Virus record (IMG/VR): IMGVR_UViG_3300029079_000072
Location: 1-12,923 of that record
From: a virus
Lineage: Duplodnaviria; Heunggongvirae; Uroviricota; Caudoviricetes
Length of the DNA: 12,923 bases
Strand: one strand, 5' to 3'
In this document: one piece after another, positions 9,364-9,690 of the stretch
Numbering within the stretch: the stretch's first letter is position 1
Layout: every line of letters begins with the position of its first letter
Notes under the pieces: model-generated
Databases searched by the model: none
What the model was told of the DNA's origin: nothing
Seen by the model: only the letters and a program-made list of their open reading frames with translations
Position numbers and translations under genes: made by a program

Positions 9364-9690
9364 TCAAGGACGTGACGGCGTAAAGATAAATTGTCTCTTC
9401 ACTCCCTGACAGGGGCGATTCTTTTCAAATCGCCATTTCGCCATGGCCTTCACCACTTCATCACGAAACAAATTATGAGGCTCTGAGCGGAGAAAAACGA
9501 TCCGTGTCACAGTCCCATCAGCACCAATATCGAACTTAACCTCAACCAGCCCCTTGATATAATTTGCTGCAGCATATTCCGGATATCGTGGATACACCGT
9601 CACTAATTGCCGGGGCTCATCAGCTTTTTGCTGCGAGCATCCCACTGCCAGGACAGATAACAGAAAAAGTAGTAAAAGGCGTCTTTTCAT
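9364..9690 (-). CDS. Lipoprotein with TonB C-terminal-like domain (108 aa)
   Basis: MKRRLLLLFLLSVLAVGC is a lipoprotein-type signal with a lipobox-like AVGC and Ser at +2. The rest (VTVYPRYPEYAAANYIKGLVEVKFDIGADGTVTRIVFLRSEPHNLFRDEVVKAMAKWRF) fits the TonB_C pattern YP..A....G.V.V.F.I..DG.V......S.P...F...V..A...WR. ATG at 9688..9690 is preceded by AGGAAT. Confidence 0.7.
   Translation of the reverse strand: MKRRLLLLFLLSVLAVGCSQQKADEPRQLVTVYPRYPEYAAANYIKGLVEVKFDIGADGTVTRIVFLRSEPHNLFRDEVVKAMAKWRFEKNRPCQGVKRQFIFTPSRP

What the first reader, a model, noticed from the sequence alone, without database searches (positions are those of the whole stretch)
9364..9690. TonB C-terminal-domain lipoprotein in the bor/moron slot next to Rz1
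A 108-aa lipoprotein that is essentially a lipid-anchored TonB C-terminal domain sits between Rz1 and cos, where lambda carries the lysogenic-conversion gene bor. TonB-C domains bind the TonB box of outer-membrane transporters (FhuA, BtuB, FepA and others) that are also receptors for phages and colicins. A periplasm-facing decoy could therefore act in superinfection exclusion or colicin resistance (functionally analogous to Cor or Llp), or alter iron uptake in the lysogen. I know of no characterised phage protein of this architecture; that is a statement about my memory, not a database result.
Basis: partly seen in the sequence, partly recalled or inferred. Interest (0 to 1): 0.68.

Follow-up and report, generated by a model that had tools for sequence, protein, structure and literature searches.

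The report
Phage lipoprotein carrying a TonB C-terminal domain
A small prophage gene encodes an outer-membrane-anchored copy of the part of TonB that docks onto nutrient transporters; it is already annotated in phage 21 and in about 30% of complete E. coli genomes, no study of its function was found, and its most likely role is a decoy that blocks TonB-dependent entry of phages and colicins.

Summary
Window 9364-9690 (minus strand) is an intact 108-aa ORF. It has a signal peptide with a lipobox (AVGC, Ser at +2), a 7-residue tether and a complete TonB C-terminal domain: Pfam TonB_C E=7e-13, 41% identity without gaps to E. coli TonB 150-230, and an AlphaFold model 0.9-1.1 Å from TonB in the FhuA and BtuB complexes.

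The gene lies 311 nt downstream of Rz/Rz1 and 764 nt upstream of cosN, on the late-gene strand. It is not new as an object. It is 100% identical to phage 21 gene CPT_21_73 ("TonB C-terminal domain protein"), named "TonB family protein" by NCBI, a member of phrog_1267, and present in 1617 of 5426 complete E. coli genomes. It does not replace bor; phage 21 carries both.

It is not a decaying fragment: dN/dS is 0.12 against a 72%-identical allele. Diverged relatives (31-44% identity) occupy the same slot in Klebsiella and Rahnella prophages.

No functional study was found. The best explanation is an outer-membrane-tethered, unenergised TonB decoy that competes for TonB boxes. Its precedent is that over-expressed periplasmic TonB domain inhibits transporters. 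This is untested; confidence is about 0.4.

The parts
9364..9690 (-). [quoted passage not shown] It is identical to phage 21 CPT_21_73 / UMO75484.1 and to WP_000830178.1.
9637..9690 (-). Signal peptide with lipobox (residues 1-18, MKRRLLLLFLLSVLAVGC). Cys18 is the predicted lipidation site. Ser19 at +2 lacks the Asp retention signal, so outer-membrane sorting is inferred.
   Evidence: pattern match and conservation across family; sorting rule from established Lol-pathway knowledge
9616..9636 (-). Short tether (residues 19-25, SQQKADE) between the lipid anchor and the folded domain. pLDDT is low here.
9376..9615 (-). TonB_C domain (residues 26-105), equivalent to E. coli TonB 153-232. It includes the YP motif (Y36-P37) and the beta3 edge strand (residues 94-103).
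9697..9700 (-). Shine-Dalgarno AGGA, 6 nt upstream of the ATG.
   Evidence: read from sequence
9710..9718 (-). Candidate extended -10 element TGTCAGAAT. It sits in a small conserved island in an otherwise diverged upstream region. Similar motifs lie upstream of the allele B, Rahnella and Klebsiella genes. This is weak evidence for an autonomous promoter.
9708..9845 (-). 45-aa upstream ORF (equivalent to phage 21 CPT_21_72). It has no family match, and its reading frame is broken by indels in allele B phages, so it is probably not a conserved gene.
9883..9991 (-). Context: generic lambdoid backbone that normally lies upstream of bor (found in lambda, 933W and HK629). bor itself is absent from the window.
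10002..10475 (-). Context: Rz i-spanin, with the embedded Rz1 o-spanin lipoprotein at 10064-10249. Spanin function is therefore already covered.
8589..8600 (-). Context: cosN 12-nt cohesive-end sequence GGGCGGCGACCT, 764 nt downstream of the stop codon.
7896..8405 (-). Context: Nu1-type terminase small subunit, the first gene after cos.

Best explanation
The gene encodes a phage accessory (moron-type) lipoprotein.

Proposed steps:
1. [quoted passage not shown]
2. A tether of about 7 residues holds a complete TonB-type C-terminal domain at the periplasmic mouth of outer-membrane barrels.
3. The protein lacks TonB's N-terminal transmembrane anchor and proline-rich rod, so it cannot couple to ExbB/ExbD and cannot transmit energy.
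4. It would occupy the TonB boxes of TonB-dependent transporters (FhuA, FepA, Cir, BtuB, FecA) and of group B colicins by beta-augmentation on its beta3 edge, and possibly pair with TonB's own C-terminal domain.
5. It would thereby out-compete the scarce native TonB.

Expected consequences:
- Exclusion of phages that need energised TonB (T1, phi80 types).
- Tolerance to group B colicins and TonB-dependent microcins.
- Reduced siderophore and B12 uptake, as a cost.

Timing: the gene lies on the late-gene strand between the spanin genes and cos, so it should be transcribed with the late operon. A weak extended -10 motif suggests it may also be expressed on its own.

What is shown: ORF, lipobox, domain, fold, slot, prevalence, purifying selection. 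What is inferred: membrane sorting, TonB-box binding, competition, phenotype, timing.
For: - Domain and fold match TonB as seen in its transporter-bound state: 2grx_C 0.9 Å, 2gsk_B 1.1 Å. The alignment to TonB 150-230 is gapless, with Y163/P164, F180, G186, F202, W213 and F230 conserved and Y215 replaced by F.
- The beta3 strand is intact. TonB-box recognition is parallel beta-augmentation onto beta3 and depends more on secondary structure than on side chains (PMC11658791).
- Precedent: over-expressed periplasmic TonB domain inhibits transporter-mediated iron import, and transporters compete for limiting TonB (PMC9841981 citing Howard 2001).
- The lipobox, without Asp at +2, and a constant short tether (15-18 residues from Cys to the PxYP motif) are conserved in the four phage-borne members checked (window allele, allele B, Klebsiella phage, Rahnella prophage) and in most other lipobox-bearing family members.
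- dN/dS is 0.12 with dS 1.5 between the two E. coli alleles.
- The slot is the same, and co-oriented with late genes, in five phage backgrounds with different lysis cassettes and terminases.
- Phage 21's own receptor is LamB, so the protein is not blocking its own receptor. This fits a role against other agents.
Against: - No binding or phenotype data exist.
- TonB residues tied to TonB-box suppression or plug contact are not kept (R158->T, Q160->Y or L, R166->Y) and vary within the family.
- A constitutive TonB block would starve the lysogen of iron. Yet the gene is present in 30% of complete E. coli genomes, including UTI89 and ATCC 25922. From my own knowledge, these strains rely on or are assayed through TonB-dependent uptake. 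Any effect in lysogens must therefore be weak, conditional or confined to lytic growth.
- The consensus scan found no promoter on the gene's strand upstream. The motif I propose is weak.
- Some chromosomal relatives are soluble periplasmic proteins in non-phage contexts, so the family's ancestral role may be something else.
- PADLOC has no matching defence model.
Confidence: 0.4

Rival explanations
1. The TonB_C fold has been re-purposed to bind a different envelope partner. Candidates are peptidoglycan, Lpp or OmpA, one specific transporter's periplasmic face, or an incoming toxin. The protein would then act as an envelope-stabilising, lysis-accessory or immunity-like factor rather than a general TonB competitor.
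For: - The TonB-box-linked residues R158, Q160 and R166 are not conserved.
- The family has its own signature (SEPxHLFD, KWRFEKxKP) distinct from TonB.
- Linkage to lysis cassettes of several types is tight.
- TonB homologue FusB uses its C-terminal domain to bind a protein substrate (PDB 9hi3), so the fold can acquire other partners.
- Chromosomal relatives sit in unrelated contexts, one next to a Tle1-like gene.
- From my own knowledge, TonB has been crosslinked to Lpp and OmpA, and peptidoglycan binding has been proposed.
Against: - No specific partner is indicated by any result here.
- The closest structural and sequence relatives are enterobacterial TonB domains in their transporter-bound form.
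- The beta3 edge is kept.
- The region between the lysis genes and cos is a general moron hot-spot, so linkage to lysis genes need not be functional.
Confidence: 0.3
2. It is a lysogenic-conversion virulence factor of the Bor/Iss type: an outer-membrane lipoprotein that raises serum resistance or host colonisation, unrelated to TonB function.
For: - It is an outer-membrane lipoprotein in the same accessory region as bor.
- It is widespread in clinical E. coli, including UTI89.
- A possible own promoter exists.
Against: - It shows no similarity to Bor; TonB_C is the only family hit.
- It coexists with bor in phage 21 and PhiR47_2.
- It is co-oriented with the late operon, unlike bor.
Confidence: 0.1
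3. It is a spanin component, as the PHROG label 'Rz-like spanin' implies.
For: phrog_1267 (category lysis) matches the full length at E=5e-43. The protein is a lipoprotein encoded just after the lysis genes.
Against: - The window has its own Rz and embedded Rz1.
- The Klebsiella phage has its own i-spanin and an overlapping o-spanin lipoprotein.
- The Rahnella prophage has its own Rz.
- The protein is a folded 80-residue TonB domain, not a short proline-rich o-spanin.
- The label is most likely positional.
Confidence: 0.03
4. It is a non-functional piece of a host tonB gene picked up by a phage, as in the old annotation 'partial tonB-like membrane protein'.
For: It covers only the C-terminal third of TonB. 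Historical annotations call it partial or a fragment.
Against: - It has its own start, Shine-Dalgarno and lipoprotein signal, none of which come from tonB.
- dN/dS is 0.12 at near-saturated dS.
- The family extends at 31-44% identity into other genera with the same architecture and slot.
- It is only 41% identical to E. coli TonB, so it is not a recent capture.
Confidence: 0.03

Closest known systems
TonB (E. coli P02929), C-terminal domain
   Same: Homologous domain: 41% identity over 81 residues without gaps. The fold is the same (0.9-1.1 Å), with the same YP motif, aromatic core and beta3 edge strand.
   Different: There is no N-terminal transmembrane anchor and no proline-rich spacer. A lipoprotein signal and a 7-residue tether replace them. 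The protein is anchored in the opposite membrane and cannot be energised by ExbBD. R158, Q160 and R166 are replaced. It scores far below all NCBIfam TonB equivalog cut-offs (45-69 bits against 265-448).
Engineered periplasmic TonB C-terminal fragments (Howard et al. 2001, J Bacteriol 183:5885)
   Same: A TonB C-terminal domain placed in the periplasm without its energy-coupling part. These fragments inhibit transporter function (as cited in PMC9841981). This is the direct functional precedent.
   Different: They are laboratory constructs, soluble and derived from E. coli TonB itself. The phage protein is natural, lipid-anchored and 59% diverged. I could not read the original paper.
Phage T5 Llp and phi80/N15 Cor
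   Same: They are small phage-encoded outer-membrane lipoproteins that inactivate a TonB-dependent transporter (FhuA), causing superinfection exclusion (PMC11436027; abstracts listed). This is the closest analogue in how it may work.
   Different: There is no sequence or fold relationship; TonB_C is the only family hit. Llp and Cor are specific for FhuA, the receptor of the phages that carry them. This protein would target the generic TonB box, and phage 21 uses LamB.
Lambda Bor / Iss
   Same: An outer-membrane lipoprotein encoded in the accessory region between Rz and cos.
   Different: It is an unrelated protein, on the opposite strand with its own promoter, and it coexists with this gene in phage 21 and PhiR47_2.
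Rz1-type o-spanins (the phrog_1267 label)
   Same: A lipoprotein encoded next to the lysis genes.
   Different: It is a folded TonB domain rather than a short proline-rich peptide, and separate spanins are present in each phage examined.

Membership tests
TonB_C domain family (Pfam PF03544 / TIGR01352) | Profile match above the curated cut-off | tested here: met
   PF03544 49.2 bits against 24.6; TIGR01352 47.4 bits against 27.1.
TonB_C domain family (Pfam PF03544 / TIGR01352) | TonB C-terminal fold: a three-stranded sheet packed on helices, with a free beta3 edge | tested here: met
   AF2 model with pLDDT above 95 in the domain. Foldseek matches 2gsk_B, 2grx_C and 1u07 at TM 0.90-0.92 normalised to the target.
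TonB energy transducer (full-length TonB) | N-terminal transmembrane anchor that couples to ExbB/ExbD | tested here: not met
   The N-terminus is a cleavable lipoprotein signal ending in AVGC. NCBIfam TonB equivalogs score 45-69 bits against cut-offs of 265-448.
TonB energy transducer (full-length TonB) | Proline-rich periplasm-spanning spacer | tested here: not met
   Only 7 residues (SQQKADE) separate Cys18 from the domain.
TonB energy transducer (full-length TonB) | Binding of transporter TonB boxes | not testable with these tools
   The beta3 strand is retained, but R158, Q160 and R166 equivalents are changed. A complex prediction or a binding assay is needed.
Bacterial lipoproteins (outer membrane) | Signal peptide with lipobox and invariant Cys; no Asp at +2 | tested here: met
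   The PROSITE-type pattern matches. Cys is conserved in both alleles and in the Klebsiella and Rahnella relatives, and +2 is S, T or A. Actual lipidation and localisation were not tested.
o-spanin (Rz1-like), as labelled for phrog_1267 | Short proline-rich lipoprotein that pairs with the i-spanin and is required for outer-membrane disruption | tested here: not met
   The protein is a folded TonB domain. A separate Rz1 lies at 10064-10249, and separate spanins are present in L004 and L006.
Bor/Iss lipoproteins | Sequence similarity to Bor | tested here: not met
   There is no Bor family hit in Pfam or NCBIfam. bor is a separate gene in phage 21.
Receptor-blocking exclusion lipoproteins (Llp, Cor) | Homology to Llp or Cor | tested here: not met
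   Only TonB_C and phrog_1267/34172 match.
Receptor-blocking exclusion lipoproteins (Llp, Cor) | Exclusion phenotype against phages that use the targeted transporter | not testable with these tools
   Plating assays are required.
Known anti-phage defence systems (PADLOC) | Match to a defence-system model | tested here: not met
   No PADLOC hit at E<=0.01.

The most novel reading that the evidence does not exclude
Temperate phages of Enterobacteriaceae carry a natural inhibitor of the TonB system: an outer-membrane-tethered TonB C-terminal domain that jams TonB boxes. If so, about 30% of complete E. coli genomes carry a gene that could conditionally confer resistance to TonB-dependent phages, group B colicins and microcins, and possibly siderophore-antibiotic conjugates. 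It would exclude by blocking a shared energy-coupling step rather than a single receptor.
Probability: 0.35. Interest if true: 0.7.

Novelty: new variant of a known kind. Interest (0 to 1): 0.5.

Why it matters
TonB-dependent transporters are entry routes for several agents. These include many phages (T1, phi80 types), group B colicins, microcins and siderophore-conjugated antibiotics.

A natural, mobile inhibitor of TonB coupling would be a new way for prophages to protect their hosts, or their own lytic cycle. It would act on the shared energy-transfer step instead of on one receptor.

It could help explain strain-to-strain differences in phage, colicin and siderophore-drug susceptibility. 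The gene is very common: 1617 of 5426 complete E. coli genomes, including reference strains.

It is also carried by the classic phage 21, so the idea can be tested directly with existing strains.

If the decoy idea is wrong, a conserved, selected TonB-fold lipoprotein tied to phage lysis regions still lacks an explanation.

Tried and rejected
- Literature: nine searches found no functional study of a phage-encoded TonB domain. The phage 21 genome announcement does not discuss the gene. Howard et al. 2001 (PMC99666) is not held, so it is cited second-hand.
- The search for related loci with family alignments A2 and A3 failed because no stretch was conserved enough. I used single proteins and the look-up of encoding contigs instead.
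- Conserved upstream RNA or regulatory element: the roughly 190-nt upstream block looked more conserved than the coding region. Its first ~110 nt turned out to be ordinary lambdoid backbone upstream of bor, and Rfam found nothing. Rejected as a feature specific to this gene.
- Spanin reading from phrog_1267: rejected, because separate spanins are present.
- Own-receptor blocker: rejected for phage 21, whose receptor is LamB.
- Fur-box regulation: a by-eye comparison of GATAAT motifs with the Fur consensus gave poor matches. It was not pursued.
- The BFVD viral structure library gave no significant match, and PADLOC gave none.

Full report
**1. The observation**

Window 9364-9690 on the minus strand is an intact ORF of 108 codons plus a stop. 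Its ATG at 9690 is preceded by AGGA at 9697-9700.

The N-terminus, MKRRLLLLFLLSVLAVGC|SQQK, has a positively charged start, a hydrophobic core and a lipobox that fits the PROSITE-type pattern, with Cys18 and Ser at +2.

Residues 26-105 are a TonB C-terminal domain:
- Pfam PF03544 gives E=7.3e-13 and 49.2 bits against a gathering score of 24.6.
- TIGR01352 gives 47.4 bits against 27.1.
- The best solved-structure relatives are E. coli and Salmonella TonB C-terminal domains, at E about 1e-14 with no gaps.
- BLASTP against E. coli TonB gives 41% identity over residues 150-230. Residue i of the phage protein corresponds to TonB residue i+127.
- An AlphaFold2 model built on an 18-sequence family alignment has mean pLDDT 86, above 95 in the domain.
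- The model superposes on TonB from the FhuA complex (2grx_C, 0.9 Å over 75 aligned columns) and from the BtuB complex (2gsk_B, 1.1 Å over 79).

**2. Surroundings**

All neighbouring phage genes run on the minus strand, in this order:
- a lysozyme (10957-11490);
- Rz (10002-10475) with embedded Rz1 (10064-10249);
- 311 nt containing a 45-aa ORF;
- the TonB_C gene;
- cosN (GGGCGGCGACCT at 8589-8600);
- a Nu1-type small terminase (7896-8405).

The window is a degraded prophage. The small terminase abuts a C-terminal fragment of the tail-tip protein J. A second junction at 11654 removes the holin, Q and RusA genes relative to an intact relative. Only one of 5426 genomes shares this arrangement.

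**3. The gene is already on record**

- The protein is 100% identical to phage 21 CPT_21_73, annotated "TonB C-terminal domain protein".
- The same protein is annotated in the phage ev017 record as [quoted passage not shown].
- It is also WP_000830178.1, "TonB family protein", and has been seen on at least 1000 contigs.
- It matches phrog_1267 over its full length at E=5e-43.
- The gene occurs in 1617 of 5426 complete E. coli genomes. There are two alleles: one at 99% nucleotide identity or more in 1202 genomes, including UTI89 and ATCC 25922, and one at about 72% amino-acid identity in 392 genomes, mainly O157 and Stx-phage backgrounds.
- In phage 21 and PhiR47_2, bor is also present, between Rz and this gene on the opposite strand.

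So this gene does not occupy bor's place. It is a neighbouring cargo in the same accessory region. In the window, bor has been lost. The ~110 nt just after Rz are the generic lambdoid sequence that normally lies upstream of bor.

**4. It is a real, selected gene and part of a wider family**

Between the two E. coli alleles dN/dS is 0.12, with dS near saturation at 1.5. The lipobox Cys is kept in both.

An exhaustive HMMER search found 2795 proteins at E<=0.001. Among the best hits is a set of small (100-135 aa) proteins that consist only of an export signal plus a TonB_C domain, at 31-46% identity. Most carry a lipobox and never have Asp at +2. The spacing from Cys to the PxYP motif is 15-18 residues in most of them, including all four phage-borne members checked; others have an ordinary signal peptide.

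Context differs among members:
- A Rahnella member (32% identity) lies after the Rz gene and before the terminase of a prophage.
- A Klebsiella member (41% identity by tblastn) does the same in phage ST13-OXA48phi12.4. It recurs in 24 IMG/VR contigs, behind at least two different kinds of lysis cassette.
- Erwinia-type members and one member inside a cellulose-synthesis cluster are chromosomal and not phage-linked.

The slot [quoted passage not shown] is thus conserved across five phage backgrounds.

**5. What it is not**

- **Not TonB.** It lacks the N-terminal membrane anchor and the proline-rich rod. It scores far below every TonB equivalog cut-off.
- **Not a spanin, despite the PHROG label.** The window, the Klebsiella phage and the Rahnella prophage each have their own spanin genes. 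The protein is a folded domain.
- **Not related to Bor, Llp or Cor** by sequence.
- **Not matched by any PADLOC defence model**.
- **Not represented in BFVD.** The viral structure library contains no significant structural match.

**6. How it most likely works**

[quoted passage not shown] This is inference, not a tested result. That would hold the TonB domain on a 7-residue tether at the periplasmic face of outer-membrane barrels.

In TonB, this domain recruits the TonB box of transporters by parallel beta-augmentation onto strand beta3. The interaction depends more on local secondary structure than on side chains (PMC11658791). The phage protein keeps beta3 (residues 94-103), the YP motif and the aromatic core.

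Without a link to ExbBD it cannot pull on the plug, so binding would be non-productive and competitive. [quoted passage not shown] 2001).

The predicted outcome is a block of TonB-dependent phage infection and colicin or microcin import, at the cost of reduced iron and B12 uptake. Phage 21 itself uses LamB, so any exclusion would be directed at other agents.

**7. Reasons for caution**

- TonB residues implicated genetically or structurally in TonB-box and plug contacts are replaced (R158->T31, Q160->Y33, R166->Y39) and vary within the family.
- A constitutive block would be costly, yet the gene is common in strains that depend on siderophores. Expression is probably conditional.
- The gene's orientation implies transcription with the late operon.
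- The consensus promoter scan found nothing on its strand.
- A short conserved island, TGTCAGAAT at 9710-9718, resembles an extended -10 element. Comparable motifs sit 20-60 nt upstream of the start in the allele B, Rahnella and Klebsiella genes. This is weak evidence for autonomous expression.
- The presence of soluble chromosomal relatives means the fold may serve another partner.

I put the decoy model at about 0.4, a re-purposed binding domain at about 0.3, a Bor-like virulence role at about 0.1, and the spanin and dead-fragment readings at about 0.03 each.

**8. Novelty and verdict**

The object is known and annotated. Its function is not: nine literature searches found no study.

Relative to known phage exclusion lipoproteins (Llp, Cor), it would be a new variant that targets the shared TonB box rather than one receptor.

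Its mechanism is reasonable but unproven, and its claims about the bor slot and about the architecture being unknown need correcting. Interest is moderate: the hypothesis is specific and easily tested in a classic phage, but nothing here is surprising at the level of sequence.

Noticed in passing
window 9536-9563 (+); L003 3628-3655 (-): A near-consensus promoter-like site lies antisense inside the TonB_C coding region: TTAACC-16-TATAAT with TG, 10 of 12. It occurs at the same codon positions in the 72%-identical allele B, where it matches 11 of 12. It overlies the invariant residues AANYIKG, so it may be a by-product of protein constraint or an antisense regulator.
   Followed up: partly
window 8749-9000 (+): An ORF on the strand opposite the late genes, between cos and the TonB_C gene. 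It encodes a small Cys-rich protein with a signal-peptide-like start (MKIRNILAISLATSSFSCLAF...). It has no hit in Pfam, NCBIfam, PHROGs or PADLOC, and it is not annotated in the RefSeq relative.
   Followed up: partly
window 9062-9241 (+): A 59-aa ORF (WP_000253883.1 in RefSeq) that matches phrog_4843, of unknown function. It lies on the opposite strand, just downstream of the TonB_C gene.
   Followed up: no
window 7818-7896 and about 11654: The prophage is a remnant. The small terminase gene abuts a C-terminal fragment of tail-tip protein J (5476-7818), so the head and tail genes are deleted. A second junction removes holin, Q, RusA and most of a DUF968 gene relative to strain Eco889. Only strain DP051 shares the arrangement.
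   Followed up: partly
PHROGs family phrog_1267: The PHROG family holding this protein is labelled 'Rz-like spanin' (category lysis). This looks like a positional mis-annotation and is likely to propagate into phage genome annotations.
   Followed up: yes
L008/L009 7001-7342; L010 7001-7336: Small TonB_C-only proteins also occur on chromosomes outside prophages. In Erwinia rhapontici the protein has a plain signal peptide and sits next to a GH3 glycosidase. Another, with a lipobox, lies inside a bcs cellulose cluster beside a Tle1-like gene, which hints at an immunity-like role.
   Followed up: no
window 324-992 (+): A class I SAM-dependent methyltransferase gene lies on the opposite strand after the tail-fibre assembly genes. 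It is another accessory (moron-like) gene of the prophage.
   Followed up: no
window 12711-12923 (-): An ORF with a Hok-like product (MKQQKAMLIALIVICLTVIVTALVTRKDLCEV...). The homologous region of strain Eco889 (L002) carries an annotated hokD, a type I toxin gene.
   Followed up: no
L004 3923-4291: The annotated start of the Klebsiella phage homologue (MLIYIHGIGVF...) is probably too far upstream. The family alignment and the lipobox spacing point to the internal MKKGF start.
   Followed up: partly
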